Virus record (IMG/VR): IMGVR_UViG_3300006141_000002 | Source: a virus | Lineage: Duplodnaviria; Heunggongvirae; Uroviricota; Caudoviricetes | DNA length: 64,000 nucleotides | Strand: one strand, 5' to 3' | In this document: piece by piece, positions 28,207-51,756 of the stretch | How the letters are laid out: each line of letters begins with the position of its first letter | Numbering within the stretch: the first letter of the stretch is position 1 | Program-made: the position numbers and the translations under genes | Notes under the pieces: generated by a model | The model's database searches: none | The model's input: only the letters and a program-made list of their open reading frames with translations | What the model was told of the DNA's origin: nothing

Positions 28207-28255
28207 TCTTAATGCAGCCATTGGCGGTCACAAGCCCGCATGAGAAATGCAGAGT
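28207..28255 (+). repeat. 48-nt conserved element copy 1 (covarying hairpin with loop UCACAAGC)
   Basis: TTAATGCAGCCATTGGCGGTCACAAGCCCGCATGAGAAATGCAGAGTG vs copy at 29601. Confidence 0.5.
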
Positions 28256-28285
28256 GAGAAACCCGCAACGAGAGGGAGGTTTTAG

Positions 28286-29515: not shown

Positions 29516-29600
29516 CCATAGGCGCTTCCCAATGCCGTAGGTTACATCCAGCGGTTCTTTCCTTTCCGATAGGCGGCCTGCAAAGTAGCGGGCCGCCTGC

Positions 29601-29648
29601 CTAATGCGGCCATAGCCGGTCACAAGCCCGGTTCAGAAACGCAGAGTG
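29601..29648 (+). repeat. 48-nt conserved element copy 2
   Basis: CTAATGCGGCCATAGCCGGTCACAAGCCCGGTTCAGAAACGCAGAGTG; stem covaries (GCGG/CCGC vs CCGG/CCGG). Confidence 0.5.
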
Positions 29649-29657
29649 GGCAATCGC

Positions 29658-32562: not shown

Positions 32563-32648
32563 CTATGAGAGTGTAGCTCAGTGGCAGAGCGGGGCAGATA
32601 CATGCCTGTCAACCGGATATGCGCTGCGTGGGTTCGATTCCCACCACT
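32563..32648 (+). tRNA. tRNA-like gene, anticodon unresolved (possibly CAU)
   Basis: acceptor GAGAGUG/CACUCUC, D arm AGCUCAGUGGCAGAGC, T arm GUGGGUUCGAUUCCCAC; the anticodon region did not fold cleanly by eye. Confidence 0.4.
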
Positions 32649-32657
32649 CTCTAATAT

Positions 32658-37726: not shown

Positions 37727-39220
37727 ATGTTCTCAAAAGAAATCACTGGTCTGACTCTCACCAATGAGATCGCATCGACCGTATTCCCGAATATCGGCGG
37801 AGATAAGTTCCGCAATGACGAGTCGTTCGTTGCGACCTTGAGAGCTTTGCTGTATAGCAGGGTTCCGAAAGAGGAGTCAATCACACTGCGATATAAAAGC
37901 ACAGACTACAGTTCCGGGCAGTTATCTGGCTCGTCTCCGAGAGACTGCGTCAGGGCTTTCTTTAACCGAACTCCGATTATGGATGGTTCAACCGGCATTT
38001 TGCTCATCCATTCATTTGAGGGGAGCGACGAGAGCAACACAACCTGCTTCGAGAAACTCGTTGAAGGTGTTCCAAAGACAGTCTCTGGATACAAGCTCCT
38101 GGCGGATCTGTCCGCATGGATTGAGAGCGACGCAAAGTTCCGCGCCAAGGTCTATGTGAACGAGGAGTACCGCAACACCATCATCTTCACGGAAAAGATG
38201 AACATGAAGCGGTGGCACATGCTGGAGTCTCTGATTTCCCGCTACTTCCCGTGGTACTTCGAGTCCAATCCGATGACTGACGAGGAGATTGAGATCGTCA
38301 AGACGCTCACAAAGCGTTACGCCCCCAGCTATGAAACGAAGATTCAGGAGTTCGCCAAGCGGTTTGACTTCCGGTCACAGGTTATCCGCAATCAGTTGAC
38401 CGGCTTTGAAACACACTTTGACCGCCGGAAGCTGGAGTCCGTCCGCAGCCAGATCAACGATATGGATCGCAGGATGCGTGATTTGGAGAGCACTTTCTCC
38501 AATTACTACCAGCAGATGGACGACCTGAGAACGCAGGAGTGCGGTCTGGTCGATAAAATCACACACGGAGGCGGCGCGGAGAGCAGCGAGCTTTTGGACT
38601 ACTTCCTATGCAACAATTCGCTGCATCTGGTCAGCGTATACAATGGCGAAATCAAGTTCATTGTAACCACCACGGTTGCAAACTTCGATCCTGACGCAGC
38701 GGAGTCCGTCATTCAGAATAACCGTAGCTACATCTATGAATATCGTGACAACGAAAATATGACGGTAGAGCGCATTAAGCGTCTGATGACGGAGATTTTC
38801 GTCAAAGAGACGATGAAGATTCGCATTTGCGCCGCATATTCGCTGAACTTCGATAACGGCAGGTACGCCGGGATTAGCGGATACGATTTCCCGTCGGATA
38901 TCATCATGGATCACACGCCGAACCAGCACATCCAGGCGTTTCACTGCCTTGGTGGAAATGAGGCGACAATTCGCCAATCTATGCGTAACCGGGATTATGT
39001 CGGCGCGGTAGCTGCTTGTGTTCAGTCGGCAAAGAGCGTCAATGTTCAGGAGAGCGCAACAACCGGCAAGATGACGCAGTTGCTGTTCTCGAACAGGATC
39101 GGTAAGGTAATCGAAATGCCCGACGGTACGACCAAGACGCCGTTTGAGGCCGTATTGTGGTTGGAGGAACAAGATGTCAAGGCGAAGAAAGAAAAAGAAC
39201 AGGAGGAGAGCCATGAGTAA
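37727..39220 (+). CDS. 497-aa protein with C-terminal E2(UBC)-like active-site region
   Basis: HTPNQHIQAFHCLGG reproduces the E2 HPN-x7-Cys spacing; operon context with JAB and E1. Confidence 0.4.
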   Translation: MFSKEITGLTLTNEIASTVFPNIGGDKFRNDESFVATLRALLYSRVPKEESITLRYKSTDYSSGQLSGSSPRDCVRAFFNRTPIMDGSTGILLIHSFEGSDESNTTCFEKLVEGVPKTVSGYKLLADLSAWIESDAKFRAKVYVNEEYRNTIIFTEKMNMKRWHMLESLISRYFPWYFESNPMTDEEIEIVKTLTKRYAPSYETKIQEFAKRFDFRSQVIRNQLTGFETHFDRRKLESVRSQINDMDRRMRDLESTFSNYYQQMDDLRTQECGLVDKITHGGGAESSELLDYFLCNNSLHLVSVYNGEIKFIVTTTVANFDPDAAESVIQNNRSYIYEYRDNENMTVERIKRLMTEIFVKETMKIRICAAYSLNFDNGRYAGISGYDFPSDIIMDHTPNQHIQAFHCLGGNEATIRQSMRNRDYVGAVAACVQSAKSVNVQESATTGKMTQLLFSNRIGKVIEMPDGTTKTPFEAVLWLEEQDVKAKKEKEQEESHE

Positions 39221-40085
39221 GCCCATTAAGCTCACGGACGAGCTGCTGCAAAAAATTCAGGAGGAGTTCATCGCAAAGGTGAAGTCCACCAAGATGTTTG
39301 ACGGAAAGCTGGAATACAGCCGGACGTTCAAGTGGGAGGGCGATGACGACCGGGCAACTGTCTACCTGTCCTCGATTGCCTTCGCCAAGATGAACTCGCT
39401 CATTCAGCAGTTCAACGACGAGGTCGCGTGGCACGGCGTGGTTCACCGTGATGAGCAGGATCCGTCCATCTTCCACATCACCGACATTTTGGTATACCCG
39501 CAGGTTGTTACCGGCGCAACGGTCAACACCGATCAAGAGGCGTACCAGACGTGGCTTTACTCCTTTGATGATGATGTGTTCAATAACATCCGGATGCAAG
39601 GACACAGCCACGTCAATATGGGCGTGTCTCCCTCTGGTGTGGACACAACTCACCAGGAGAAGATTCTGGAGCAAATCTCCGATGACGACTACTACATCTT
39701 CATGATCTGGAACAAGCGGTACGAGCACTTTGTCCGCATCTTCGATCTGAAGAACAACACCCTGTACGACACGGCAGATGTTGATGTGTATATTGGAGAT
39801 GTCGGCGTGGATCTTCAGGCTTTCATCAGCAGCGCCAAGGAGATCGTCACCAACAGAACCTATAAGCCTGTCACCGGTTTTCAGGGAACCTATCAGCAGA
39901 CGCAGACGCGGGTCGTCACACCCATCAGTCAGACAACAACGCCGGCGGCGACGGCCGGTGCGAGCGTCGTCGGAGTCAAAACAAAACCGAAGGTAAACGG
40001 AGGTGATACCGGCATTGGCCGGTCCTTTTCCGACTACCAATTCGACGAAGACGATCCCTATGACCGCCTATACCTCGGACAGTAA
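39213..40085 (+). CDS. JAB/MPN+ (JAMM) metalloprotease, deubiquitinase-like
   Basis: HSHVNMGVSPSGVD matches the JAMM HxHx7Sx2D motif; upstream Glu in EVAWHG; 8-nt overlap with upstream gene. Confidence 0.65.
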   Translation: MSKPIKLTDELLQKIQEEFIAKVKSTKMFDGKLEYSRTFKWEGDDDRATVYLSSIAFAKMNSLIQQFNDEVAWHGVVHRDEQDPSIFHITDILVYPQVVTGATVNTDQEAYQTWLYSFDDDVFNNIRMQGHSHVNMGVSPSGVDTTHQEKILEQISDDDYYIFMIWNKRYEHFVRIFDLKNNTLYDTADVDVYIGDVGVDLQAFISSAKEIVTNRTYKPVTGFQGTYQQTQTRVVTPISQTTTPAATAGASVVGVKTKPKVNGGDTGIGRSFSDYQFDEDDPYDRLYLGQ

Positions 40086-40102
40086 GAAAGGAGAGACAAA
40101 CA

Positions 40103-40774
40103 ATGGATTTGGCGAAGTCCTACGAATTCTTCAAGCCGGATATGCTCGAATCGCGGATTCATATCATCGGCTGTGGAGCGATTGGTTCCACGGTCGCTGA
40201 GAATCTGGTGCGGTTCGGCATTACGAAAATCACGCTGTATGACTTCGATACCGTAGAAGCCCACAACATTGCCAACCAGATGTTCCGGAATACGGATATC
40301 GGCAAGGCCAAGGTTGATGCTTTGGCTGAGTATCTCACCGAGATCAATCCGGACTGCGCCCCCGATCTGAAGCTGGTCAAAGAGGGCTGGACAGGCCAGC
40401 GTCTCTCCGGTTATGTGTTCCTGGCGGTGGACAACATTGACCTCCGCCGGGAGATCGCCACCTCCTGTAAGGAGAACACGTTCGTCAAGGGGATGTTCGA
40501 CTTCCGGATGCGGCTGACGGACGCCCAGCACTATGCCGCTGACTGGAGCGACAAGAAGATGGTGGAGAACTTTATCGACAGCATGGCGTTCTCTCATGAT
40601 GAGGCAAAAGAGGCGACGCCCGTTTCTGCCTGCAATATCACACTGTCGGTTGTTCCGACGGTGCGAACGATCGTTGCCTACGGCGTAGCCAACTTCATCA
40701 ACTTCGTGAAGGGCGAGAAACTCCGCAAGATGATTCTTGTGGATGCTTTTGAATTCGACGTGATCGCCGTGTAA
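40103..40774 (+). CDS. E1-like ThiF/MoeB-family adenylyltransferase
   Basis: IHIIGCGAIGSTVAENLVRFGITKITLYDFDTVEAHNIANQMF matches the Rossmann GxGxxG + DxDxVExSNLxRQ-like ThiF signature. Confidence 0.7.
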   Translation: MDLAKSYEFFKPDMLESRIHIIGCGAIGSTVAENLVRFGITKITLYDFDTVEAHNIANQMFRNTDIGKAKVDALAEYLTEINPDCAPDLKLVKEGWTGQRLSGYVFLAVDNIDLRREIATSCKENTFVKGMFDFRMRLTDAQHYAADWSDKKMVENFIDSMAFSHDEAKEATPVSACNITLSVVPTVRTIVAYGVANFINFVKGEKLRKMILVDAFEFDVIAV

Positions 40775-40794
40775 GGCATCACGTTTTACGATAG

Positions 40795-40835
40795 TTCTAT
40801 AGGGGCAGTGGCTTTGGTTGCCGCTGCCCCTTCCA
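40795..40835 (+). terminator. rho-independent terminator after the E1 gene
   Basis: GGGGCAGUGGC-UUUGGUU-GCCGCUGCCCC then UUCC. Confidence 0.5.
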
Positions 40836-40839
40836 TATA

Positions 40840-41218
40840 GTCTGTATTGCATTACTTTCAGAGTTATTCTGAGGGTGCTCTGTATTGTAAATCAGAGTTG
40901 CGCATGGCTGGGAGAAGGGACACCCCGCCCGGAGGCGGAATCTGAAGGCGCCTGCCCGCCACCGAGGTCAAGAGGTAATAAATAAACTGTTTTCTACTGC
41001 TCCAAATACGCAAAGAACTCTTGACATCTCGACCAGAAAGGTGACGGACAGCAAACAGGAAGACAGATGGCGACCCCAAGAACCATCGGACCGCCGCAAA
41101 TCACTCACCAGATTACCCACCGAGCCCGCACTCAGTCCCAGCTCTCAAGTACCCATCGCATCCTGAATTCCTCAACCTACTGTATACCAGAATACAGACA
41201 TCAGGAGGTATTAAAAAT
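40840..41218 (+). ncRNA. candidate retron-type ncRNA (msr/msd) or structured leader upstream of the RT
   Basis: GC-rich hairpins; ATAGTCTGTATTG at about 40840 complementary to CAGAATACAGAC at about 41184 (a1/a2-like). Confidence 0.2.
40878..40897 (+). repeat. hairpin repeat copy 1 (CTCTG-TATTGTAAAT-CAGAG) with 25-nt conserved 3' extension
   Basis: 5 copies in window, stem covaries in copy 5. Confidence 0.6.
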
Positions 41219-42358
41219 ATGCCATACATAACCGTCATGCAATCGCCTGCATACCATCAGATATCATTTGAGGAAATCATATCTGGTGAGGTCAACATGC
41301 AGTCTATGATAACTTCAAACAGCACCAATACCAGAACGCATTTCGCACAGCGACTCAAGCCACAGTTTCTGGATCGGTTCGATTTCGCCGGTATGGTCTC
41401 CGCTCTGGAGAGTTTTTGCGAACAAAATGCCGAGCTGTATGCCGTTCCGAGAGAAGCCCTCTATACCACATTCCATATTCCGAAGAAGTCCGGCGGCCTG
41501 CGTGAGATCAATGCCCCTGTGCCAGAACTGATGACGGCGCTTCGGAATCTGAAGACTTTGTTTGAGACCAAGATGTTTGCGCTGTACCACACCTCCGCCT
41601 TTGCCTATGTTAAGAATCGTTCCACCATTGACGCCATCAAACGTCACCAGAGGAATGACAGTCATTGGTTCTTAAAGACGGATTTCTCGAACTTTTTTGG
41701 GGACACAACGCTGGTATTCCTTCGGTATTCGCTCTCTTTGATTTTCCCGTTCAGCGAGATTGTCAAGTCAGAACGGGGCAGAGCAGCACTGGACAAGGCA
41801 CTCAACCTCTGTTTTCTTCATGGCGGATTGCCGCAGGGCACGCCGATTTCTCCGATGCTCACAAATCTGATGATGATCCCCCTTGATCACAAGGTATACA
41901 ATACCCTGCGTGATTTTAACGGGCAGTCGTTCGTTTACACCAGATACGCAGACGACTCTCTAATTTCAAGCCGGAGAGAGTTTGACTACAATAAGGTCAT
42001 CGACTTCATCAATCAGACGCTGGATGATTTCCATGCGCCGTTCAAGATCAAGGATGAGAAGACGAGGTATGGTTCCAGAGCCGGCAGTAATTGGAACCTC
42101 GGGCTCATGCTCAATAAGGACAATGAGATCACCATCGGTCACAAGAACAAGCAGCGTTTTCGTGCAATGATCAGCAACTACATCCTCGACCGTAAGAACG
42201 GAATTGTCTGGGAACTGCACGATGTTCAGGTTTTGCGCGGCCTTATCAACTACTACCGGATGGTTGAAGAAAAGTATGTTGACGAGGTCATCAAGTACAA
42301 CAACGAAAAATATCAAACGGACGTAATGCGTACCATCCATGAGGATTTGGCCGCATAA
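41219..42358 (+). CDS. retron-type reverse transcriptase
   Basis: IPKKSGGLREI, NRSTIDAIKRH, FLKTDFSNFFG, LPQGTPISPMLTNL, YTRYADD; C-terminal region alignable to the retron INxKKT...VTG...IG region with NLG for VTG. Confidence 0.7.
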   Translation: MPYITVMQSPAYHQISFEEIISGEVNMQSMITSNSTNTRTHFAQRLKPQFLDRFDFAGMVSALESFCEQNAELYAVPREALYTTFHIPKKSGGLREINAPVPELMTALRNLKTLFETKMFALYHTSAFAYVKNRSTIDAIKRHQRNDSHWFLKTDFSNFFGDTTLVFLRYSLSLIFPFSEIVKSERGRAALDKALNLCFLHGGLPQGTPISPMLTNLMMIPLDHKVYNTLRDFNGQSFVYTRYADDSLISSRREFDYNKVIDFINQTLDDFHAPFKIKDEKTRYGSRAGSNWNLGLMLNKDNEITIGHKNKQRFRAMISNYILDRKNGIVWELHDVQVLRGLINYYRMVEEKYVDEVIKYNNEKYQTDVMRTIHEDLAA

Positions 42359-42404
42359 ATAAGCAAAATTTTGTAATGTATAGCCTTTTGTTCCTCAAAA
42401 GGCA

Positions 42405-42424
42405 CTCTGTATTGTAAATCAGAG
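42405..42424 (+). repeat. hairpin repeat copy 2 + conserved extension TAACGAATGGCTGGGAGAAGGGAGCC
   Basis: preceded by a small variable hairpin GCCTTTTG..CAAAAGGC. Confidence 0.6.
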
Positions 42425-42730
42425 TAACGAATGGCTGGGAGAAGGGAGCCTGCCAGGCTGCGCAGTGCTGCCGGCCGCGACGGCAGCAGGAGATGCTAAA
42501 CACCCTTACCAACATCACGAAGAACGGAACTATTACCGAACTGCACATTTCGCCAGGAAATCAGCAGGAACTCCGTCACAAAAATTCCTGAAACCTGACA
42601 CCAGTTCGGACAGCCGGGAACACACGAGATGACATTCCCAGACTCACCTCTCTGGAGGAAACCATGGCCAGCTTCCTATCCCTTATGGTAGATTACAAAG
42701 TTTATGCAAAGCATGAAAGAGGTGGTTGAT

Positions 42731-43282
42731 ATGATTCAACTGGCAGTCGAAGTCAGTGATTTGGATTGCGGCGAATCCAAAGTCATTGTACTGCCATGTA
42801 ATCTGCGGGCAGAATTAGAGAATCATTATGATTACATTATTCTGTCCACCACGCCCAACATTCCAATCAGCCGAAACGACGATATCAGTGGATTGAACGA
42901 TATACTGGATGATATCAACAGCGAAAATCCTGGGATGACGGAAGATTATTTGAAGGTTCTGATGGAAGCTTCGTCTTCTGGTGACCTGTTCGATCCGGAA
43001 TTTGTGCGTAAGCTGAAAGAAAACGATTTTATGTTCGAGGACATATCTGATCTTCATTGGGCGATGAACGCAAAGGAGACCGCAGCTTGTTATCTGGCGA
43101 CTGAACTCAAAGTGCCGTTTGACCACGGTGTTACAGACGAGATGCTTGACACCCTCAGTAAAGACGTGCTGACCGACTATATCAACTGGGGACAGGTTTG
43201 GGATCAGTATTCTTCTGTTGGTTTTCGGGTCGTTGAGCAAGAGCCGCCGACCGGCGGGCGATATATTGTGCATATAAAATAA
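42731..43282 (+). CDS. acidic hypothetical protein (DNA-mimic/anti-restriction-like composition)
   Basis: RBS AAGAGGTGG; Asp/Glu-rich. Confidence 0.4.
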   Translation: MIQLAVEVSDLDCGESKVIVLPCNLRAELENHYDYIILSTTPNIPISRNDDISGLNDILDDINSENPGMTEDYLKVLMEASSSGDLFDPEFVRKLKENDFMFEDISDLHWAMNAKETAACYLATELKVPFDHGVTDEMLDTLSKDVLTDYINWGQVWDQYSSVGFRVVEQEPPTGGRYIVHIK

Positions 43283-43321
43283 CTTTGTTGTTGCGATGTA
43301 TTTTAAGTCGAAAGACTTAAA

Positions 43322-43341
43322 CTCTGTATTGTAAATCAGAG
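43322..43341 (+). repeat. hairpin repeat copy 3 + conserved extension
   Basis: ACTCTGTATTGTAAATCAGAGTAACGAATGGTTGGGTGGAGG. Confidence 0.6.
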
Positions 43342-43810
43342 TAACGAATGGTTGGGTGGAGGATGACGGCTTGGCGGCCGCAGTGCGTGCGATCAGAGAT
43401 CCCGCGGCAGCCGACGACCACCTGCTCAGGCGCCGACCCGCACAGGGGCCATCAGGACAAAGGTCACCAAACCCGCCAACACACTGAGACTCAAGGAGTT
43501 CGGCACCCGATGTCAGGAACCCACAGACACACGACATCATTCCAAACCAGATGACAGCAGTAACCGGGAGCTGTATCCGGATGCAGGGAGCCCTCCTCGT
43601 AGCCTGCCGAGATATAATGCAGATCACAAACAACAAAGTGCGTATTTCAAGGACTTTAGGACGCTGATCCGAGTATTTATTTGAAATAAGAGGTAGTGGA
43701 AAATCCCGAGTTCAGCGTCCTTTTGCCATCCCATGCAGTATGGCTATTATGTATGGGATAAAACACAGGTTTTAAGTATTGCGCCAGACTTTCACGAAAG
43801 GGTGGTATCC

Positions 43811-44146
43811 ATGGCAAGGTATCAAATTGGAGATCGAGTAGAAGCTATCGTCAACAACCCAGATGAGAGTGACTATATCATGGTTGGCGATACTGGAACG
43901 GTGTGCGATATTGACGGAGATCATGTTGGTGTCGATTGGGATAATGAATTAGGTGAAGGACATGATTGCTCCGGAAATTGTGAGTACGGCCACGGGTGGT
44001 ATGTCCATACGAGATATATCAGGCCGTACGAAGATGATGTTGAAGATATCGACGAGAACTCCTTCCTTGGTGTCGCTCTCCGTGCGGGGGGGGTGACAAA
44101 GCGTGATGGAATTTCAAGTAGGAGATTGTGTCGAAGCTATTCGTAA
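43811..44146 (+). CDS. small SH3-like domain protein, C-terminus ENSFLGVALRAGG + 17-aa extension
   Basis: paralog of 44103 gene; 8-G tract 44086-44093 encodes AGG. Confidence 0.45.
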   Translation: MARYQIGDRVEAIVNNPDESDYIMVGDTGTVCDIDGDHVGVDWDNELGEGHDCSGNCEYGHGWYVHTRYIRPYEDDVEDIDENSFLGVALRAGGVTKRDGISSRRLCRSYS

Positions 44147-44384
44147 TCATCCAGACGGCAATCCTGATATCAAGATAGGCGACCTTGGCACAGTATGCAG
44201 GGTATCAGATAATATTGGTGTTAATTGGGGTAAGCCCATCCAAAGAGGACACGACTGCGGACATACTTGCAAGCATGGACTTGGATGGTATGTTGGACGC
44301 AATGAGATCAGGCTGTATGAACCAGAAGGAACCATCGACATTGAGGAAGACAGCTTTATGCGTATGCTTGGAGGTTCAAAATGA
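44103..44384 (+). CDS. small SH3-like domain protein, C-terminus EEDSFMRMLGG+SK
   Basis: shares GD.VEAI.N.PD......GD.GTVC.....GV.W......GHDC...C..G.GWYV with the upstream paralog. Confidence 0.45.
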   Translation: MMEFQVGDCVEAIRNHPDGNPDIKIGDLGTVCRVSDNIGVNWGKPIQRGHDCGHTCKHGLGWYVGRNEIRLYEPEGTIDIEEDSFMRMLGGSK

Positions 44385-45055
44385 TCTATGTGACAGGGGA
44401 TACTCATGCGGACATTGACATAAAAAAGTTGTCTGTCAAGAACTTCCCGATGCAAAAATCGCTCACTAAGAAGGATTATTTAATTGTCTGTGGGGATTTT
44501 GGGCTCATATGGGACGGTTCTACACGAGAGATATGGTGGAAAAAATGGCTCGCGGGTAAAAACTTCACCACGCTCTGGATCGATGGGAACCATGAGAATT
44601 TTGATATCCTCCGCAAATTTTCGCTTCAAGATAAGTTCGGTGGTAAAGTCCGAGAAATAGCGCCAAATATTTACCATCTGGAGAGAGGACAAGTTCTGAC
44701 CATCGACGGGCAAAGGTTCTTTGTGATGGGCGGTGCAAGATCTCATGACAAAGAATATCGTACAGAACATATTTCTTGGTGGAAAGACGAAATGCCATCT
44801 ATGGAAGAGATGGAACGGGGGATCAACGCGCTTGATAACAACGGATGGTCTGTTGATTATGTGTTAACGCACTGTGCGCCAAGAAGCATTCAGACCATGA
44901 TTGCAGATTGGTATGAAAATGATCCGCTCGTAAGCTATCTGGAGCGTATTATGGTTGACCTTCAGTTCAAACGTTGGTATTTTGGACACTACCATATCGA
45001 CAAAATTATGAATGATCAATTCATTGCCTTATACAATAAGGTAATGCTTGTATAG
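44381..45055 (+). CDS. metallophosphoesterase (Ser/Thr phosphatase-like)
   Basis: GDTHAD, GDFG, GNHE motifs. Confidence 0.6.
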   Translation: MIYVTGDTHADIDIKKLSVKNFPMQKSLTKKDYLIVCGDFGLIWDGSTREIWWKKWLAGKNFTTLWIDGNHENFDILRKFSLQDKFGGKVREIAPNIYHLERGQVLTIDGQRFFVMGGARSHDKEYRTEHISWWKDEMPSMEEMERGINALDNNGWSVDYVLTHCAPRSIQTMIADWYENDPLVSYLERIMVDLQFKRWYFGHYHIDKIMNDQFIALYNKVMLV

Positions 45056-45090
45056 TCCTACGGAGCGGTCAATTCGACCGCTCCCAATAT

Positions 45091-45165
45091 TGGGGTGTCG
45101 CCAAGCGGCAAGGCAAGGGACTTTGACTCCCTCATTCGCTGGTTCGAATCCAGTCACCCCAGCCA
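45091..45165 (+). tRNA. tRNA-Gln (anticodon TTG)
   Basis: acceptor UGGGGUG/CACCCCA, anticodon stem AGGGA/UCCCU loop CUUUGAC. Confidence 0.65.
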
Positions 45166-45169
45166 ACAT

Positions 45170-45244
45170 GCTGATGTAGCTCTAATGGCAGAGCGAGGCT
45201 TTCGTAAAGCTTAGGTTCGCGGTTCGAGTCCGTGCATCAGCTCC
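45170..45244 (+). tRNA. tRNA-Thr (anticodon CGT)
   Basis: acceptor GCUGAUG/CAUCAGC, anticodon loop UUCGUAA. Confidence 0.6.
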
Positions 45245-45248
45245 ATTT

Positions 45249-45324
45249 GCTGGTATAGCTCAGTTGGTAGAGCATCGGTTTTGTACTCCGAGTGTCGCGG
45301 GTTCGACTCCTGTTACCAGCTCCA
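45249..45324 (+). tRNA. tRNA-Thr (anticodon TGT)
   Basis: acceptor GCUGGUA/UACCAGC, D arm AGCUCAGUUGGUAGAGC, anticodon loop UUUGUAC. Confidence 0.55.
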
Positions 45325-45429
45325 CCCCGAAAGGGGAACGTGCAAACATGGTATTTAATAAGACAGCGCACCCATGCGGTCTATAACAATGTGGGGAACG
45401 GCCCGGCTATACGCCGGGCCTCTTTTACG

Positions 45430-45847
45430 GGGCCGTAAAGGTTTCGACGGGGTTCTGAGAGAGTAAGATTCGCAGGTAGAGACCGCCTTAAGGCTAAACA
45501 AAAAATGAAATGACAATGATATGAGTGTTGTTATGATCCATCCCGCTTTCGCCGCCTTCATGGCAGAGAGGGTCGCCGCTTAACTGTCGGCAGGATTCCA
45601 AAACGGTACACCTCTGGCTGGGTAAGTACCTGCGGTCGAGGATACGCCAGAAAAACAGTTTTCCTTGTAATCTGTTCAAAAAGACAAGGTGGTGGAGGTG
45701 TACTTAACTGGTACGCCCTGGGGTAGATTTGGATTCCATCTTGGTGCCCCGCCATAAGGCATCCACCTAAAAGGAAACCTATTGCGTAAAAAGGTCTTGC
45801 TCATGTAGGAATTTCGGACGCGGGTTCGATTCCCGCCGGCTCCACCA
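45430..45847 (+). ncRNA. ssrA: tmRNA (SsrA)
   Basis: 5' GGGGCCGUAAAGGUUUCGACGGGG and 3' GGACGCGGGUUCGAUUCCCGCCGGCUCCACCA match the tmRNA tRNA-like domain consensus; candidate tag ORF ending ..AFMAERVAA-stop near 45540-45590. Confidence 0.7.
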
Positions 45848-45850
45848 TCT

Positions 45851-45926
45851 GTGGGAGTAACTCAACTGGCAGAGTGCCGTCCTTCCAAGTCGGAAGCTGC
45901 GGGTTCAAGTCCCGTCTCTCACTCCA
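45851..45926 (+). tRNA. tRNA-Gly (anticodon TCC)
   Basis: acceptor GUGGGAG/CUCUCAC, anticodon loop CUUCCAA, T-loop UUCAAGU. Confidence 0.55.
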
Positions 45927-45927
45927 G

Positions 45928-45960
45928 CGTGCCGTAGTTCTCGGCACGATCTTTTTCTTT
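45928..45960 (+). terminator. rho-independent terminator
   Basis: GUGCCG-UAGUUCUC-GGCAC then UUUUUCUUU. Confidence 0.5.
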
Positions 45961-46083
45961 GCTCCAAAGTACACGGAGCACCCCGCCGCCCTGCGGGATG
46001 GGCACGCTCAAAACCGAGTGTAGCAGGTTTACAGGGACGCTCGCCTGCGGGAGTCCTGTTTTTAGAGCTACACAATACAAAAT

Positions 46084-46250
46084 GTGCGGTGGCGGAATAG
46101 GTAGACGCTATAACGAGAGGTAGGGTAAGACAATGGTTCGAGTCCATCGTTGTCCTCCTGTTTGGGTTCGGTGAAGTAGCCGATGGGCGACAAGCTCGGT
46201 AGCAGGTACATAATCTTACCTATGCGGGGTGAAAATCCCCGCCCGCACAA
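46084..46250 (+). other. about 167-nt tRNA-Leu-like element with expanded middle (no encoded CCA)
   Basis: 5' UGUGCGG-UG-GCGGAAUAGGUAGACGC (tRNA-Leu D arm) ... 3' GCGGGGUGAAAAUCCCCGC-CCGCACA pairing the 5' end. Confidence 0.3.
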
Positions 46251-46253
46251 TAT

Positions 46254-46329
46254 CTGGGTGTAGCTCAGTTGGCAGAGCGCGTGATTTGGGATCACGAGGC
46301 CGGGAGTTCGATCCTCCCCACTCAGACCA
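46254..46329 (+). tRNA. tRNA-Pro (anticodon TGG)
   Basis: anticodon stem CGUGA/UCACG loop UUUGGGA. Confidence 0.65.
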
Positions 46330-46332
46330 TAC

Positions 46333-46407
46333 GGCCCGGTAGTCAAGCGGTTAAGACACCAGACCTTCACTCTGGTAACGCGGGTTCGACTCCCGTCCGG
46401 GTCACCA
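46333..46407 (+). tRNA. tRNA-Glu (anticodon TTC)
   Basis: acceptor GGCCCGG/CCGGGUC, anticodon loop CCUUCAC (C33). Confidence 0.55.
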
Positions 46408-46431
46408 ATTCAACAGAAAGGGGTCTTCTTC

Positions 46432-46872
46432 ATGACACGTCAGGAATTTATCGAAGGTGTAAACTCATTCGGCGACCTAATCAGTTTCTGTGTTGATGAG
46501 GGAATTGATGATCTCTGCAACGATGTTTATGATGCAGAATACCTCAATGAAATCCTGCTGGAAACAATCGGCAATATGCGTGACTGGGAAGAAATCCGTG
46601 GCCTTCTGGCGAACATTCCGACTCGTTGCGATTACTACCGCGAGGATGGATATGGCGGATATGAGGACGCAGATTATTCATTTGACGACTACAAGAACGA
46701 AGTCCTCCGGCATATGGACGAAAACGAAGCGTGGGATGAAGAAGAAGAAAATGTCGAAGACGATATTGAAGAAGACACCGATGAAGATGCCGACGACTGG
46801 TTTGCGCCTGCTGACATCGAGGAGGATATTGAAACGGACAGCTTTATAGCTGTGCTTGGGAGGGCGAGCTGA
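46432..46872 (+). CDS. highly acidic protein, C-terminus ETDSFIAVLGRAS
   Basis: Asp/Glu-rich 146 aa; shares the C-terminal motif family. Confidence 0.5.
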   Translation: MTRQEFIEGVNSFGDLISFCVDEGIDDLCNDVYDAEYLNEILLETIGNMRDWEEIRGLLANIPTRCDYYREDGYGGYEDADYSFDDYKNEVLRHMDENEAWDEEEENVEDDIEEDTDEDADDWFAPADIEEDIETDSFIAVLGRAS

Positions 46873-47486
46873 TGGGACAGTATTATAGACCGCTGATGAT
46901 TTTTGAAGACGGAGAGGAACGGTCTGCGTATTCTCACGCATTTGACAATGGGCTCAAGCTGATGGAGCACTCATGGATCGGCAATAACTTTGTTAACGCG
47001 GTGCTGCATGAAATCGAGGACAGACCGGCCCGTATCGCATGGATGGGAGACTATGCCACCGATGCAGTGGAGGATGGATGCAACTTTGGTGATGGATATA
47101 TCACAAGTGTTGAAGCCTTCCTTGAAAAGTATAACGGCGTGTGGGGTGAATACAGAAGCGTTCAGGATATCTCACCGGAAACGCCACAATATAAGCTCGA
47201 TCTCGACAGCGCCGGGTGCTATCTGGTGAATGCAACGAAAAAGTGCTACATCGACATAGAGGAATACATAAGGCGGAACTCCGTCCGCGACAGATACGGG
47301 ATGTCTGGCGTGTGGTGTATCAACCCGCTTCCGCTTCTCACTTGCATCGGGAATGGCATGGGAGGCGGAGATTATCGCGGAGAGGCTGGCATGGGAGATG
47401 TCGGTTCTTGGGCGTTTGACAAAATCTATATCACATATCTAAGACCTGGGAACTGGGAGAGAGTTGACTACAGGTTCCAGGAGTAA
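46872..47486 (+). CDS. hypothetical protein
   Basis: 204 aa, start overlaps upstream stop (ATGA). Confidence 0.45.
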   Translation: MGQYYRPLMIFEDGEERSAYSHAFDNGLKLMEHSWIGNNFVNAVLHEIEDRPARIAWMGDYATDAVEDGCNFGDGYITSVEAFLEKYNGVWGEYRSVQDISPETPQYKLDLDSAGCYLVNATKKCYIDIEEYIRRNSVRDRYGMSGVWCINPLPLLTCIGNGMGGGDYRGEAGMGDVGSWAFDKIYITYLRPGNWERVDYRFQE

Positions 47487-47532
47487 TAATCATTTTGCAG
47501 CGTATTAGCCCACAGTCTGCGTACATAGGGCA

Positions 47533-47552
47533 CTCTGTATTGTGAATCAGAG
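47533..47552 (+). repeat. hairpin repeat copy 4 (CTCTG-TATTGTGAAT-CAGAG)
   Basis: GGGCACTCTGTATTGTGAATCAGAG. Confidence 0.55.
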
Positions 47553-47750
47553 AAACGCAAGGGTAACCGTTCACACGCTCAAAGAAGTTCCTCCGAATGA
47601 TCAAAGATCCGTACGGATCGCGGGCGATCCTCCCGGATCTTGGATCATCGGCGTCACTTCTTCAAGGCTGCAAAAAGAAAATTCCGACAGTTCTGTAATG
47701 TATATCGCCTGTTATAACCAATCAATACATAAAGCGGGCACTCCGTATTG

Positions 47751-47770
47751 TTAATCGGAGTATGGATTTG
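47751..47770 (+). repeat. hairpin repeat copy 5 with compensatory stem change (CTCCG..CGGAG)
   Basis: GGGCACTCCGTATTGTTAATCGGAG. Confidence 0.55.
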
Positions 47771-47933
47771 TTTGTTTCCTCGCTGCGCGAGCGCGACGAG
47801 GTCGGCTGACGCCGACGAAGTCGCGCCGCTCGCGAGTCCTTTGGCATCATTCAGATGTCCAGTCACATCTCACCTGGACATCTGTAATGACGGATTACAG
47901 AACGAACAACATATCAGTTTAAGGAGAAAACCA

Positions 47934-48452
47934 ATGCGGCAAGTACGAAATTCGGTGTTTGAGACCAATTCCAGCAGCACCCACTGTATTTGTATTGTGA
48001 CGGACAGGAAGGCTGAACTAGAATATCCAGAAAAGGTGTATTTTCGATGTGACGATTTTGGCCGAGAGCCTGCTGAACTGCGGTCAGTCGAGGATAAGGC
48101 TGCGTATTTATACTCCAGTATCCTGTCGCTTTATGAAATGAAAAAGGCAGAGAACGCAAAGACATGGATTATGGAAGAACTGATGAAAGTTGGTGTTCAA
48201 TGTGAGTTTGAAAAGGCCACCTATCACAGATATGGAAGCGGCGTTTATTGCGTTAATGCTTTTGTCGATCATGCTGGTGAGGACGATCATCTGAGGTTCG
48301 TGGACGGAATACTTCGGAGCAGCGGGCGGCTGCTCCGTTATTTATTCTCCGATAAAAGCGTTGTTTTAACAACAAGTGATGAAATTGACGATGATCGCGT
48401 GGAAAATTTCCATGTCGATTACCGGCACGAATTTTACTACAAGGGGAACTAA
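47934..48452 (+). CDS. hypothetical protein with N-terminal MRQVRxxVFETNSSSTH motif
   Basis: RBS TAAGGAGAAAA; paralogous N-terminus with 52986 gene. Confidence 0.45.
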   Translation: MRQVRNSVFETNSSSTHCICIVTDRKAELEYPEKVYFRCDDFGREPAELRSVEDKAAYLYSSILSLYEMKKAENAKTWIMEELMKVGVQCEFEKATYHRYGSGVYCVNAFVDHAGEDDHLRFVDGILRSSGRLLRYLFSDKSVVLTTSDEIDDDRVENFHVDYRHEFYYKGN

Positions 48453-50008: not shown

Positions 50009-50233
50009 ATGCTGTTTCTAATCGTTTTAATTGTTATCACTTACATTCTGATTGGTTCTTCTCTTGGCGGTTTTTACTACTACCTGATGTATAAAAAGAA
50101 CAGCTATAGCGACCTGGAAGATATGCACTATCTACCAATATGGATCATGGCTTTGTGGTTTATCGTGGCTCCTCTTGCATTTGCAATCTACTATGCGGGA
50201 AAGAAAGTTGAAAGTGAGGATGATGAGAAATGA
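50009..50233 (+). CDS. small two-TM membrane protein
   Basis: hydrophobic helices; RBS GAGGTGA. Confidence 0.4.
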   Translation: MLFLIVLIVITYILIGSSLGGFYYYLMYKKNSYSDLEDMHYLPIWIMALWFIVAPLAFAIYYAGKKVESEDDEK

Positions 50234-51756
50234 GTGGTTGTTGCTACAATCCACTGCTTTGCCTGGACTTTTACAAGACGGCCCACGCAGAGCAGTATCC
50301 GCAGACCCTGACCAAGATGGTCTCCTACTACACTCCCCGCATGACCCGGCTGGGAGACACAGATAAGGTCACGATGTTTGGCCTCCAGGCGTTCATCAAG
50401 GAGTACCTCGTTGATGCCTTCAACCACTTTTTCTTCCAAGAGGACTGGGAGGATGTCCTCAGCGAGTATAAGCGGGTTCTCAACGCCACCATCAACACCG
50501 ATGGTGTTGGAGAAAAGCGCCTGAAAGCTCTTCATGACTTGGGCTATCTTCCCCTAGAGATTCGGGCCGTGCCGGAGGGTGTGCGTACCAATATCAAGGT
50601 GCCGCAAATTGAGATTTCCAACACCCATCCGAACTTTGTGTGGCTGGTGAACTCCATTGAGACCATGCTGTCCTGCACCATGTGGCACACCCAAGTTTCC
50701 GCCGAGGTCGGCTATCGCTACCGCCAAATCGTCAACGAGTTTACAGATCGCACCTGTGATGACAGCGTGGTCCGCGCCAGACTCCTTGGCGATTTTTCCA
50801 TGCGTGGTCAAGAGAGCGTGGAGAGCGCCACCAAAAGTTCTGCCGCTTTCTGTCTCAGCTTCCTGAACACCGCCACTGTTCCCGCAATCCTGTGGCTGGA
50901 GGACAACTATCACTGCGACTGTGCTAAGGAGCCGGTAGCCTATGGCGCTTTGTCCACCGAACACAGCGTGATGTGTTCCAACTTCGCTATGGACGGTGAC
51001 GAGGTCACCCATATCCGCCGTCTGCTGACCGAGATTTACCCTCACCAGAACTTCTCCATGGTCAGTGACAGCTACGATTACTGGAATCTGGTAGACAACA
51101 TCCTGCCGCAGCTCAAAGACGAGATTCTGGCACACGATGGATGTCTGCTTATCCGTGGAGACAGTGGAGACCCCGTCGAGGTCGTGACCAAGACTGCGTT
51201 CAAGCTGTGGGACATTTTTGGAGGCACCGTGAACAGCAAGGGGTTCAAAGTGCTGAATCCGCACGTCAAGGCGTTGTATGGTGACAGCATTACTCCCCAG
51301 CGATGCAAGCAAATCTATCAGATTCTGGAATCCAACGGGTTTGCCATTAACAATGTCTCCCTTGGCGTCGGTTCCTTCTCCATGCAGTGCTTGGAGACTT
51401 TGGAACGAAGTGAACCCAATCCCGTTTCCGGTATCTCTGTTGTCAATAAGACATACGCACCATACACCCGTGACACCTTTGGTATCGCCGTTAAGGCCAC
51501 CTATGCCGAGGATGCAGACGGCAAGCCCATCATGATTTTCAAGAATCCCAAGACCGACACTGGTCACTTCAAGAAGTCTCAGCGGGGTTGCTGCCGTGTG
51601 ATCAAAAACGGTGATAACTACATCTATAAGGATGGCCTAACTTGGGCTGAGGCTCAAGAGAACAATGAATTACGGGTGGTCTTCAAGAATGGGGAGTTCA
51701 TCAAAATTTATACCTTGGATGAGGTTCGGCAGAATCTCCATGGAGGGGAATTTTGA
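50230..51756 (+). CDS. nadV: nicotinamide phosphoribosyltransferase (NAMPT/NadV/Namat-like)
   Basis: 508 aa; CYNPLLCLDFYKTAHAEQYP N-terminus typical of NAMPT; start overlaps upstream stop. Confidence 0.65.
   Translation: MSGCCYNPLLCLDFYKTAHAEQYPQTLTKMVSYYTPRMTRLGDTDKVTMFGLQAFIKEYLVDAFNHFFFQEDWEDVLSEYKRVLNATINTDGVGEKRLKALHDLGYLPLEIRAVPEGVRTNIKVPQIEISNTHPNFVWLVNSIETMLSCTMWHTQVSAEVGYRYRQIVNEFTDRTCDDSVVRARLLGDFSMRGQESVESATKSSAAFCLSFLNTATVPAILWLEDNYHCDCAKEPVAYGALSTEHSVMCSNFAMDGDEVTHIRRLLTEIYPHQNFSMVSDSYDYWNLVDNILPQLKDEILAHDGCLLIRGDSGDPVEVVTKTAFKLWDIFGGTVNSKGFKVLNPHVKALYGDSITPQRCKQIYQILESNGFAINNVSLGVGSFSMQCLETLERSEPNPVSGISVVNKTYAPYTRDTFGIAVKATYAEDADGKPIMIFKNPKTDTGHFKKSQRGCCRVIKNGDNYIYKDGLTWAEAQENNELRVVFKNGEFIKIYTLDEVRQNLHGGEF

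What the first reader, a model, noticed from the sequence alone, without database searches (positions are those of the whole stretch)
40878..47770. Five-copy plus-strand hairpin repeat with compensatory base changes, each opening a long untranslated leader
GGCACTCTG-TATTGTAAAT-CAGAG occurs at 40878, 42405, 43322, 47533 and 47751.

Copies 1-3 share a further 25 nt (TAACGAATGGCTGGGAGAAGGGAGCC). Copy 5 has CTCCG...CGGAG, a double compensatory change that preserves the 5-bp stem. That argues for selection on RNA or DNA secondary structure.

Each copy sits just after a gene end and is preceded by a small variable hairpin. It is followed by 150-380 nt of GC-rich non-coding sequence before the next ORF.

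Candidates are a conserved phage promoter or processing site, an RNA-binding-protein target, or an element related to the RT, since two copies flank it. One speculative link is a promoter for the large DxDGD protein, should it be a YonO-like RNA polymerase.
Basis: seen in the sequence. Interest (0 to 1): 0.6.

Follow-up and report, generated by a model that had tools for sequence, protein, structure and literature searches.

The report
Five retron-like RNAs around phage RT
The repeated hairpin is one conserved stem-loop inside five closed, structured non-coding RNAs that sit beside a phage reverse transcriptase and look like retron template RNAs, which would make this an unusual retron-type system with several RNAs per enzyme.

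Summary
There are five plus-strand copies of A/G-CTCYG-TATTGTNAAT-CRGAG-T, against none expected by chance, and the stem shows compensatory changes.

The hairpin is neither a promoter nor the start of a leader. It is stem-loop P2 of a larger RNA domain of 183-360 nt.

- The sequence 25-42 nt upstream (yTGTAAT-G-yAT) pairs with a conserved motif far downstream (uAG|ATTACAra). This closing helix, P0, covaries in 12 of 12 pairs across 62 distinct elements.
- An invariant G follows the 5' strand of P0.
- Next come a variable hairpin P1, with heavy covariation, then P2, then a 120-270 nt interior.

The neighbouring gene (41219-42358) is a retron-clade reverse transcriptase (RT). In 62 related phage loci the same element lies about 290-380 nt upstream of the RT in 52, directly after it in 44, and in two or more copies in 49. 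It is always on the RT strand. The P2 loop is identical among the copies of one phage but differs between RT lineages.

Best reading: these are five paralogous retron-like (msr-msd-type) RNAs served by one phage RT. DNA synthesis from them is inferred, not shown. I rate this a new variant of a known kind.

The parts
40840..41199 (+). Element c1: closed retron-like ncRNA domain (360 nt) directly upstream of the RT gene. The invariant G is at 40849.
   Evidence: Covariance-model hit of 68.2 bits. The minimum-free-energy fold recovers P0, P1 and P2. Coordinates.
40840..40848 (+). c1 P0 5' strand, GTCTGTATT
   Evidence: Pairs with AATACAGAC at 41191-41199.
40854..40876 (+). c1 P1, variable hairpin (ACTTTCAGAG / TTCTGAGGGT)
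40877..40898 (+). c1 P2, the reported hairpin G-CTCTG-TATTGTAAAT-CAGAG-T
41191..41199 (+). c1 P0 3' strand, AATACAGAC. It ends 19 nt before the RT start codon.
41219..42358 (+). Retron-clade reverse transcriptase (379 aa) with the YADD motif present
   Evidence: - Pfam RVT_1, 2.6e-17.
- PADLOC RT_II-A, 6e-47.
- NCBIfam retron_St85_RT, 2e-51 at 175 bits, below the 235-bit cut-off.
- Best solved relatives are retron RTs Ec83, Ec78 and 22et.
42366..42703 (+). Element c2 (338 nt). It starts 8 nt after the RT stop codon. The invariant G is at 42378.
   Evidence: Covariance-model hit of 82.6 bits. Folding z-score -3.97, and the centroid structure keeps P0, P1 and P2.
42366..42377 (+). c2 P0 5' strand, AAATTTTGTAAT
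   Evidence: Pairs with ATTACAAAGTTT at 42692-42703.
42383..42403 (+). c2 P1 (GCCTTTTG / CAAAAGGC)
42404..42425 (+). c2 P2, A-CTCTG-TATTGTAAAT-CAGAG-T
42692..42703 (+). c2 P0 3' strand
43283..43638 (+). Element c3 (356 nt). It starts right after the stop codon of the 183-aa gene. The invariant G is at 43298.
   Evidence: Covariance-model hit of 72.9 bits. Fold.
43283..43297 (+). c3 P0 5' strand, CTTTGTTGTTGCGAT
   Evidence: Pairs with ATCACAAACAACAAAG at 43623-43638, with one bulge and one C.A mismatch.
43303..43320 (+). c3 P1 (TTAAGTC / GACTTAA)
43321..43342 (+). c3 P2
43623..43638 (+). c3 P0 3' strand
47493..47675 (+). Element c4 (183 nt). It is stand-alone with no ORF, and its interior is one long hairpin. 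The invariant G is at 47502.
   Evidence: Covariance-model hit of 27.7 bits. Folding z-score -5.0, with P0 and a roughly 35-bp hairpin in the centroid structure.
47493..47501 (+). c4 P0 5' strand, TTTTGCAGC
   Evidence: Pairs with GCTGCAAAA at 47667-47675. Relatives in L024 show the covarying pair GTTTGCAAC/GTTGCAAAC.
47508..47531 (+). c4 P1 (GCCC...GGGC)
47532..47553 (+). c4 P2 (loop TATTGTGAAT)
47667..47675 (+). c4 P0 3' strand
47690..47903 (+). Element c5 (214 nt), 14 nt after c4. The invariant G is at 47700.
   Evidence: Covariance-model hit of 41.3 bits. Folding z-score -6.9.
47690..47699 (+). c5 P0 5' strand, GTTCTGTAAT
   Evidence: Pairs with ATTACAGAAC at 47894-47903.
47707..47739 (+). 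c5 P1 (GCCTG...CGGGC, long loop)
47740..47761 (+). c5 P2, A-CTCCG-TATTGTTAAT-CGGAG-T (compensated stem)
47894..47903 (+). c5 P0 3' strand. It ends 30 nt before the ATG at 47934.

Best explanation
The five repeats are the conserved stem-loop (P2) of five paralogous structured non-coding RNAs of 183-360 nt. These RNAs are the cognate partners, and most likely the templates, of the adjacent retron-clade reverse transcriptase (RT).

**Layout of each RNA**
- A long-range helix P0 joins its two ends, like the a2/a1 inverted repeats of a retron.
- An invariant G follows immediately. It is the candidate 2'-OH priming, or 'branching', guanosine.
- Two abutting hairpins come next, comparable to the msr part of a retron RNA. 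P1 varies freely. P2 carries a loop specific to the RT lineage and would be the recognition element for the RT.
- Then comes a 120-270 nt interior, comparable to the msd template. The conserved uAUGUAG immediately 5' of the P0 3' strand would be where cDNA synthesis starts.

**Shown**
- The RNA architecture and its covariation.
- The strand specificity.
- The retron-clade affinity of the RT.
- The tight positional linkage of the element to the RT.
- The within-genome identity of the P2 loop.

**Inferred**
- That the RT binds P2.
- That it primes from the G.
- That it makes one msDNA-like product per RNA.

What the products do in the phage is unknown. Options include anti-defence decoys, a prophage-borne defence, or control of the neighbouring genes.
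For: **1. Closing helix P0**
- The best contiguous complement to the 5' box within the downstream 440 nt averages 9.8 bp, against 6.6-6.8 in reversed or shuffled controls.
- The partner always lies next to the conserved uAG motif, 196-372 nt away.
- On 62 distinct elements:
  - 88% of cells are paired, against 69% in shuffles (0 of 500 shuffles as high).
  - 12 of 12 pairs change on both sides.
  - Sliding the partner gives 31-41% paired.
- RNAalifold recovers P0 de novo, and minimum-free-energy folds of all five window elements recover it.

**2. Hairpins P1 and P2**
- 95.5% paired on the MAFFT alignment A3, against 71% in shuffles.
- 95.6% paired on 82 distinct sequences, against 66%.
- G.U outnumbers A.C by 115 to 8 cells, which fits sense-strand RNA.

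**3. Invariant G**
- G is present after P0 in 62 of 62 elements.

**4. The RT is retron-clade**
- PADLOC RT_II-A 6e-47 and NCBIfam retron_St85_RT 2e-51, against group II RT at 7e-23.
- The best solved relatives are all retron RTs.
- The most conserved residues of the retron motifs NAXXH (the H) and VTG (the G) are kept (definitions from PMC7736814).

**5. Linkage to the RT**
- Of 62 RT loci, 52 have an element starting 286-384 nt upstream of the RT and 44 have one 6-44 nt after its stop.
- 49 loci have two or more elements, and there are no hits on the opposite strand.
- A 42%-identical RT in MT835544.1 still has the upstream element.

**6. Concerted P2 loop**
- The loop is the same in all copies of one phage but differs between lineages: UAUUGUAAAU, CGCCAAAGGC, UACUGUUAGU, UGUUAUUAGC, CGCUUUCAGC.

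**7. Stand-alone copies and stable folding**
- Some copies have no ORF: c4 here, and tandem copies in relatives.
- Folding z-scores are -4 to -6.9.
- The interiors of c4 and c5 are long hairpins, like retron msd stems.
Against: - No cDNA, transcript or protein-RNA data exist. Everything beyond the RNA structure and the linkage is inference.
- The RT scores below NCBIfam's retron cut-off (175 against 235 bits). Its NAXXH and VTG motifs are degenerate (AIKRH and NLG).
- The interiors of c1-c3 are long (about 250 nt), A+C-rich and multibranched rather than one long msd hairpin.
- The proposed helix between the GGGAGGAGG tract and a 3' pyrimidine tract could not be told apart from controls.
- No recognisable retron effector is present.
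- Canonical retrons have one ncRNA. I found no described precedent for several.
- No Rfam family matches the elements.
- The 3' partner of P0 was located by complementarity, which inflates the paired percentage. It does not inflate the between-element covariation or the conserved flanking motif.
Confidence: 0.6

Rival explanations
1. The elements are cis-acting RNA modules that a phage protein (possibly the RT, possibly another) recognises, but they are not reverse-transcribed. Candidate roles are mRNA processing or stability insulators between cistrons, or translational control of the downstream genes.
For: - They occupy intergenic positions in a co-directional gene cluster.
- The P0 3' strand ends 19-30 nt before a strong Shine-Dalgarno (SD) sequence and ATG in c1, c2 and c5.
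- The lineage-specific loop implies a trans-acting factor.
- Type VI retrons set a precedent for a template RNA fused to a regulated coding sequence (bioRxiv 10.1101/2025.10.22.683967).
Against: - Predicted SD accessibility is inconsistent among copies.
- c4 and many tandem copies have no ORF to regulate.
- c3 is separated from the next gene by about 170 nt containing a possible terminator and a promoter-like site.
- The retron-like layout (terminal repeats, G, hairpins) and the RT linkage would be left unexplained.
Confidence: 0.2
2. The elements are RNase III-type (or other host RNase) processing sites that cut a polycistronic transcript, like the T7 R sites or the SP82 early-mRNA sites (the comparison rests on my own knowledge).
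For: Repeated conserved hairpins lie between co-directional genes. The closing helix P0 would excise the whole domain.
Against: - P0 is only about 9-13 bp.
- A host RNase would not require a loop that changes with the phage RT lineage while staying identical within a genome.
- The elements cluster around the RT only, not across the other operons of the 64-kb window.
Confidence: 0.08
3. The elements are promoters, or hairpin promoters as in phage N4, for a phage RNA polymerase such as the YonO-like 918-aa protein.
For: - The phage encodes a DxDGD protein with homologues in SPbeta-family phages.
- The motif is conserved and strand-specific.
Against: - Sequence upstream of the hairpin is base-paired RNA with covariation and G.U pairs, so it is transcribed.
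- No copy lies upstream of the structural or late genes on the minus strand.
- Tandem copies occur without genes.
- No sigma-70-like sites lie at the repeat.
Confidence: 0.03
4. The elements are processive antitermination RNAs, like HK022 put or lambda nut, that modify RNA polymerase as it transcribes the region.
For: Two abutting hairpins, one with a conserved loop, resemble put (comparison from my own knowledge). There are several copies along one transcription direction.
Against: - The ends are closed by a long-range helix and the domain spans 180-360 nt.
- Tandem copies sit 14 nt apart.
- The association is specific to a reverse transcriptase.
- The loop varies with the RT lineage.
Confidence: 0.05
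5. The elements are miniature mobile elements (MITE-like) with terminal inverted repeats, inserted between genes.
For: Each element has inverted repeats of 9-15 bp at its two ends, and there are several copies.
Against: - The repeats differ between copies in a compensatory way, and G.U pairs are tolerated. That fits RNA pairing, not a shared transposase site.
- Copies sit at orthologous positions in phages whose RTs are 55-85% identical.
- The interiors of the paralogues are unrelated in sequence.
Confidence: 0.02

Closest known systems
Bacterial retrons: the msr-msd ncRNA plus retron RT. The closest RT profiles are type II-A / St85 (Retron-Sen2) and type I-A (Ec78/Ec83).
   Same: - The RT falls in the retron clade by profile and by solved relatives.
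- The ncRNA lies immediately upstream of the RT on the same strand.
- Terminal inverted repeats pair to close the RNA.
- A conserved G follows the 5' repeat directly.
- One or two msr-like hairpins follow.
- In c4 and c5 a long hairpin precedes the 3' repeat.
- The hairpin loop is specific to the RT lineage, as retron RTs are to their own msr (PMC7736814).
   Different: - There are three to seven RNAs per RT instead of one. Some follow the RT, some are tandem, and some precede unrelated genes.
- The system sits in a large (>64 kb) phage next to tRNA, tmRNA and phosphoesterase genes.
- No known effector is present.
- The NAXXH and VTG motifs are reduced to H and G.
- The interior is long and A+C-rich.
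- A small hairpin overlaps the 3' repeat.
- msDNA has not been demonstrated.
Type VI retron hybrid RNA (hyRNA; Retron-Vpa2, bioRxiv 10.1101/2025.10.22.683967)
   Same: A retron template RNA sits on one transcript with a downstream coding sequence. In that system cDNA synthesis changes expression of the coding sequence.
   Different: - There it is one RNA per system, with a small toxin and an HTH partner.
- Here SD occlusion is not consistently predicted.
- Here several copies have no ORF.
DRT2 / UG2 and other defence RTs that use a neighbouring structured ncRNA as template
   Same: An RT has an adjacent, structured, conserved ncRNA.
   Different: - The RT here scores far better against retron models than against Drt2 (2e-51 against 5e-12).
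- No stop-free frame exists on either strand of the elements, so a neo-like gene is not supported.
Intergenic processing or antitermination hairpins of phages: T7 RNase III sites, SP82 sites, lambda nut, HK022 put (comparison from my own knowledge)
   Same: Conserved hairpins are repeated along a co-directional gene cluster.
   Different: - These elements are closed 180-360 nt domains.
- They are linked to the RT.
- They carry lineage-specific loops.
- They occur in tandem copies without genes.

Membership tests
Retron (RT component) | The RT groups with retron or retron-like RTs rather than with group II, DGR, Abi or UG RTs. | tested here: met
   - PADLOC RT_II-A 6.3e-47, and the top 25 hits are all retron RT models.
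- NCBIfam retron_St85_RT 2e-51, against group II 7e-23 and Drt2 5e-12.
- The PDB top hits are retron RTs.
- However, the 175 bits fall below NCBIfam's 235-bit cut-off for the St85 family itself.
Retron (RT component) | Region X carries the NAXXH motif and region Y the VTG triplet (PMC7736814; the H and the G are the most conserved residues). | tested here: inconclusive
   In the alignment to retron RTs, NALAH aligns to AIKRH and VTG aligns to NLG. Only the most conserved residue of each motif is retained.
Retron (ncRNA component) | The ncRNA gene is contiguous with the RT on the same strand. | tested here: met
   c1 ends 19 nt before the RT start codon. In 52 of 62 loci an element starts 286-384 nt upstream of the RT.
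Retron (ncRNA component) | Inverted repeats at the two ends (a1/a2) hybridise. | tested here: met
   P0 is 88% paired, and 12 of 12 pairs change on both sides across 62 elements. It is recovered by RNAalifold and by single-sequence folds.
Retron (ncRNA component) | A conserved branching G sits at the inner end of the 5' repeat. | tested here: met
   G is invariant at that position in 62 of 62 distinct elements. This shows only that the residue is conserved; its role as a primer is untested.
Retron (ncRNA component) | The msr part has one to three hairpins. | tested here: met
   P1 and P2 are 95.6% paired with abundant covariation.
Retron (ncRNA component) | The msd part is a long stable stem-loop. 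| tested here: inconclusive
   - c4 and c5 fold into long hairpins.
- c1-c3 are predicted to be multibranched.
- The basal helix of the interior was not distinguishable from controls.
Retron (system) | The system produces msDNA, a cDNA linked 2'-5' to the branching G. | not testable with these tools
   This needs expression plus nucleic-acid analysis.
Retron (system) | An effector protein or domain is associated with the RT. | tested here: not met
   No PADLOC or Pfam effector-type hit appears among the genes that follow the elements. The RT has no fused domain.
Sigma-70-type promoter | -35 and -10 hexamers with 16-18 nt spacing at a fixed position in every copy. | tested here: not met
   No promoter-like site overlaps any of the five repeats.
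Any Rfam RNA family | A covariance-model match. | tested here: not met
   Across 40700-48100, the significant matches at E up to 5 are tRNA and tmRNA. The rest are weak matches far below their gathering scores. One of these (freshwater-2, 47853-47936, 24.7 bits against a 49.9-bit threshold, E 1.7) overlaps the 3' end of c5.

The most novel reading that the evidence does not exclude
A widespread family of large gut phages, probably infecting Clostridia, carries a 'retron array'. One retron-clade RT serves three to seven distinct template RNAs, all sharing a lineage-specific recognition hairpin. The RT would make several different msDNA-like products during infection or lysogeny. These might act as decoys against host defences, or as switches for the adjacent tRNA-repair and auxiliary genes. 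This would be the first multi-template retron, and a phage-side use of retron chemistry.
Probability: 0.45. Interest if true: 0.8.

Novelty: new variant of a known kind. Interest (0 to 1): 0.7.

Why it matters
Retrons are defined as one RT plus one ncRNA plus an effector, and they are studied as bacterial anti-phage systems and as genome-editing tools.

Several consequences would follow from a phage-encoded retron-type RT surrounded by several cognate RNAs:

- It would show that one RT can be programmed by an array of templates in nature.
- It would give a natural set of orthogonal RT/hairpin pairs, because the loops differ by lineage. Such pairs are useful for multiplexed ssDNA production.
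- It would open the question of what phages do with reverse-transcribed DNA.

The prediction is easy to test. Co-express the RT with each roughly 200-350 nt RNA and look for RT-dependent small DNA.

Even if no cDNA is made, this is a well-supported new structured RNA class. It has 82 distinct sequences and three covarying helices, and it is absent from Rfam.

Tried and rejected
- **Rfam.** Both the gathering and E-value thresholds gave no significant match on the elements.
- **Megablast of the region against INPHARED phages.** No match.
- **Exact-pattern scan of genome contigs.** Almost all hits were chance. Only L070, L077 and L083 were real. Host assignment from those bins (Bacteroides, Anaeroplasmataceae) is unreliable.
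- **Promoter readings of the upstream box** (sigma-70, extended -10, sigma-54, Bacteroidetes -7/-33). I considered these by eye and with the scan. I dropped them once the box proved to be one strand of P0.
- **Leader peptide from the conserved ATG after P2.** Rejected, because L010 has a stop after three codons and there is no SD sequence.
- **Stop-free frame on either strand, as in DRT2 neo.** Not found.
- **Interior sequences as antisense to, or copies of, other window sequence.** Nothing beyond 12-nt chance matches.
- **Helix P3, between GGGAGGAGG and a pyrimidine tract.** Duplex energy was -12.8 kcal/mol, against -13.0 with another element's partner and -12.2 shuffled. It is not discriminated.
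- **SD occlusion.** Inconsistent among copies.
- **Pairing between the box and the P2 loop.** This appeared in some minimum-free-energy folds. I judged it a by-product of the quasi-palindromic UGUA motif.
- **Literature searches for multi-ncRNA or phage-encoded retrons.** Nothing found in the held library.

Full report
**1. The observation**

The 24-nt pattern GGCACTCTGTATTGTAAATCAGAG, with up to three mismatches, occurs five times in the 64-kb window. The copies are at 40874, 42401, 43318, 47529 and 47737, all on the + strand. None was expected in 100 dinucleotide-preserving shuffles. The loop core GTATTGTNAATC gives the same five sites.

Copy 5 has CTCCG/CGGAG in place of CTCTG/CAGAG.

**2. 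Conservation elsewhere**

An exact-pattern scan of viral contigs found the hairpin at syntenic positions in related uncultured phages. There the stem takes several forms: CTCTG/CAGAG, CTCCG/CGGAG, CTTCG/CGAAG, CTTTG/CAAAG, CTTCA/TGAAG and the wobble form CTCTG/CGGAG. The loop stays TATTGTAAAT throughout.

The 'small variable hairpin' in front of the repeat (P1) is different in every copy but always pairs. Examples are GCCTTTTG/CAAAAGGC, GCTTTGC/GCAAAGC, ACTTCC/GGAAGT and GTCTGT/ACAGAC. It abuts the conserved hairpin (P2) with no spacer.

On a MAFFT alignment of 22 copies, P1 and P2 are 95.5% paired against 71% in shuffles. Nine of the 12 pairs change on both sides, and sliding the partner drops pairing to 26-48%.

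**3. The upstream box is one strand of a long-range helix**

A second conserved motif, yTGTAAT-G-yAT, lies 25-42 nt upstream of P2. I first considered it as a promoter. Aligning whole 'leaders' then exposed a conserved motif at their 3' ends...TGTAGATTACAra.... That motif is the reverse complement of the box.

The complementarity extends outward, and differently in each copy:

| Copy | 5' strand / 3' strand |
|---|---|
| c1 | GTCTGTATT / AATACAGAC |
| c2 | AAATTTTGTAAT / ATTACAAAGTTT |
| c3 | CTTTGTTGTT... / ...AACAACAAAG |
| c4 | TTTTGCAGC / GCTGCAAAA |
| c5 | GTTCTGTAAT / ATTACAGAAC |

Support for this helix (P0) across the family:
- Across 81 distinct elements, the best contiguous complement in the downstream 440 nt averages 9.8 bp. 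Reversed and shuffled controls give 6.6-6.8 bp.
- The partner always sits next to the same uAG motif, and the elements span 196-372 nt.
- On a gap-free composite alignment of 62 distinct elements, P0 is 88% paired against 69% in shuffles.
- All 12 pairs show double changes, and slid partners give 31-41% paired.
- In the wider family even the inner core covaries: TGTAAT/ATTACA, TGTAAC/GTTACA, TGCAAT/ATTGCA, TGTGAT/ATCACA and TACGAT/ATCGTA.

One caveat applies. The 3' strand was located by complementarity, which inflates the paired percentage. It does not inflate the specificity of each 3' strand for its own 5' strand.

RNAalifold run de novo on nine elements of another clade recovers P0, P1 and P2. 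It also finds a 3-bp extension that places the invariant G in a 2x2 internal loop opposite 'AG'.

G.U pairs greatly outnumber A.C in P1 and P2 (115 against 8 cells). The structure therefore belongs to the + strand, which is the sense strand of all the neighbouring genes.

Each repeat is thus part of a closed RNA domain:

| Element | Coordinates | Length |
|---|---|---|
| c1 | 40840-41199 | 360 nt |
| c2 | 42366-42703 | 338 nt |
| c3 | 43283-43638 | 356 nt |
| c4 | 47493-47675 | 183 nt |
| c5 | 47690-47903 | 214 nt |

The three elements tested with the folding tool (c2, c4, c5) fold far better than shuffles, with z-scores of -4.0, -5.0 and -6.9. Element c4 contains no ORF and is followed 14 nt later by c5.

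**4. The neighbouring enzyme**

The gene between c1 and c2 (41219-42358) is a reverse transcriptase (Pfam RVT_1).
- Against defence-system profiles its best 25 matches are all retron RT models, led by RT_II-A at 6e-47.
- NCBIfam gives retron_St85_RT at 2e-51, although its 175 bits fall below that family's 235-bit cut-off. Group II RT scores 7e-23 and Drt2 5e-12.
- The closest solved structures are retron RTs: Ec83, Ec78 and entry 22et.
- YADD is present.
- In that alignment the retron signature NAXXH reads AIKRH and VTG reads NLG. Mestre et al. (PMC7736814) name the H and the G as the most conserved residues, and only those survive.

**5. Linkage and concerted evolution**

The RT family is large: 61 viral loci at 45-85% identity on contigs of 7-150 kb, and thousands of proteins. 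A covariance model of box, P1 and P2 (R1) found 173 matches in the window plus 70 loci. All lie on the RT strand. In the window it found only the five known copies.

Counts over 62 RT loci:
- 52 have an element starting 286-384 nt upstream of the RT.
- 44 have one starting 6-44 nt after its stop codon.
- 34 have exactly three copies, typically a tandem pair after the RT with no ORF between them.
- 49 have two or more copies.

A 42%-identical RT from a human faecal phage record (MT835544.1) still has the upstream element.

The P2 apical loop is identical in all copies within a phage but differs between RT lineages. Examples are UAUUGUAAAU, CGCCAAAGGC, UACUGUUAGU, UGUUAUUAGC, CGCUUUCAGC and CGGUAUUACCG. 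This pattern is expected if a factor encoded by the same genome reads the loop. The RT is the obvious candidate, since retron RTs are specific for their own msr hairpins (PMC7736814).

**6. Interpretation**

The layout is terminal inverted repeats, a conserved G at the inner end of the 5' repeat, one or two hairpins, a template-sized interior and then the RT. This is the textbook retron msr-msd layout (PMC7736814).

I therefore read c1 as the retron-like ncRNA of this RT, and c2-c5 as paralogous extra templates.

The following are shown: the structure, the strand, the RT clade, the linkage and the concerted loop. The following are inferred: RT binding, priming from the G, and cDNA synthesis starting opposite the conserved uAUGUAG.

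The biological role is open. The phage has an integrase (21917-22780), so a prophage-borne defence is possible. The surrounding genes are a ThiF/E1-like protein, a phosphoesterase, a tRNA/tmRNA array and, in relatives, a probable RtcB-like RNA ligase, identified by eye from its sequence. They look like an auxiliary or counter-defence region, so an anti-defence role is equally possible.

**7. What does not fit, and what failed**

Points that do not fit a canonical retron:
- Canonical retrons have one ncRNA and an effector. Here there are several RNAs and no recognisable effector.
- The interiors of c1-c3 are long, A+C-rich and predicted to be multibranched.
- A putative basal helix of the interior (GGGAGGAGG with a pyrimidine tract) was no better than controls.

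Tests that gave nothing:
- Shine-Dalgarno occlusion is inconsistent among copies.
- Neither strand has a stop-free frame.
- The interiors match nothing else in the window.
- Rfam has no match.
- I found no paper describing multi-ncRNA or phage-lytic retron arrays in the held library. That is absence of evidence within that library only.

**8. Rivals**

- A promoter, including one for the YonO-like protein, is contradicted by transcribed, base-paired sequence upstream of the hairpin and by the element's distribution.
- Host RNase processing sites and antitermination RNAs do not explain the RT linkage or the lineage-specific loop.
- A MITE is contradicted by compensatory differences between the 'terminal repeats' and by orthologous positions.
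- The most serious rival is that these RNAs are recognised by a phage protein but act only at the RNA level.

**9. Verdict**

The finding is real and more interesting than a repeated hairpin. It is a new, well-supported structured RNA class that forms multi-copy arrays around a retron-clade RT in a widespread family of uncultured phages.

I rate it a new variant of a known kind (retron-like). My confidence is 0.6 in the retron-template mechanism and about 0.95 in the RNA-domain architecture.

Noticed in passing
window 17158-19914 (-): A 918-aa ORF carries the motif NGADKDGD (DxDGD). It has no Pfam hit and no sequence match to solved structures. tblastn finds homologues in Clostridium phage c-st (41%), in Enterocloster phages (38%, one annotated as RNA-dependent RNA polymerase) and in SPbeta-family Bacillus phages (26%, E 5e-18). 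It is plausibly a YonO-type single-subunit RNA polymerase, and the hits hint at a Clostridia host.
   Followed up: partly
window 24167-24221, 24248-24302, 23169-23189: A perfect 55-nt direct repeat, GGTGACATACAAGCCCATGCGTATATGTAGGGCGAACGGCACAGCACCGCCCCAC, occurs twice 81 nt apart, with a third partial copy. The GTGACATA motif recurs at 23109-23140. The repeats lie between the integrase and the first + strand genes, so they may be operators or regulatory repeats.
   Followed up: no
window 28182-28261 and 29574-29653: An 80-nt direct repeat at 74% identity, of unknown nature.
   Followed up: no
window 39144-40774 (+): A ThiF/E1-like protein lies at 40103-40774 (PADLOC E1-E2 1e-20; NCBIfam 6A-MBL cap2_3 3e-19). 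It is preceded by an ORF with a weak JAB hit, and both lie just upstream of element c1. A ThiF-like gene also precedes the RT locus in relative L162. This may be a ubiquitin-like conjugation or deconjugation pair.
   Followed up: no
window 45091-46407 and 32567-32652: An array of six tRNAs plus a tmRNA (tag AVEDTPEKQFSL) lies between elements c3 and c4. The stretch 45930-46250 inside the array has no call apart from weak permuted-tmRNA scores. ARAGORN calls one tRNA at 32567 with a 4-nt anticodon.
   Followed up: no
window 43668-43750: After c3 there is a 10-bp stem, GGACGCUGA...UCAGCGUCC, followed by UUUUG. It is a possible terminator, but the folding z-score is only -1.5. A sigma-70-like site, TTGCCA-16-TATTAT, lies just before the SH3-like gene.
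   Followed up: partly
L161-L187 and related loci, interior of the element that follows the RT: A conserved internal hairpin, CCAUUG-yGnCA-CAAUGG, sits in the middle of the otherwise variable interior. It may be a stop or recognition signal.
   Followed up: no
window 21917-22780 (-), 50230-51756 (+): A tyrosine integrase (phrog_216) suggests a temperate phage. A nicotinamide/nicotinate phosphoribosyltransferase gene is an NAD-salvage auxiliary gene.
   Followed up: no
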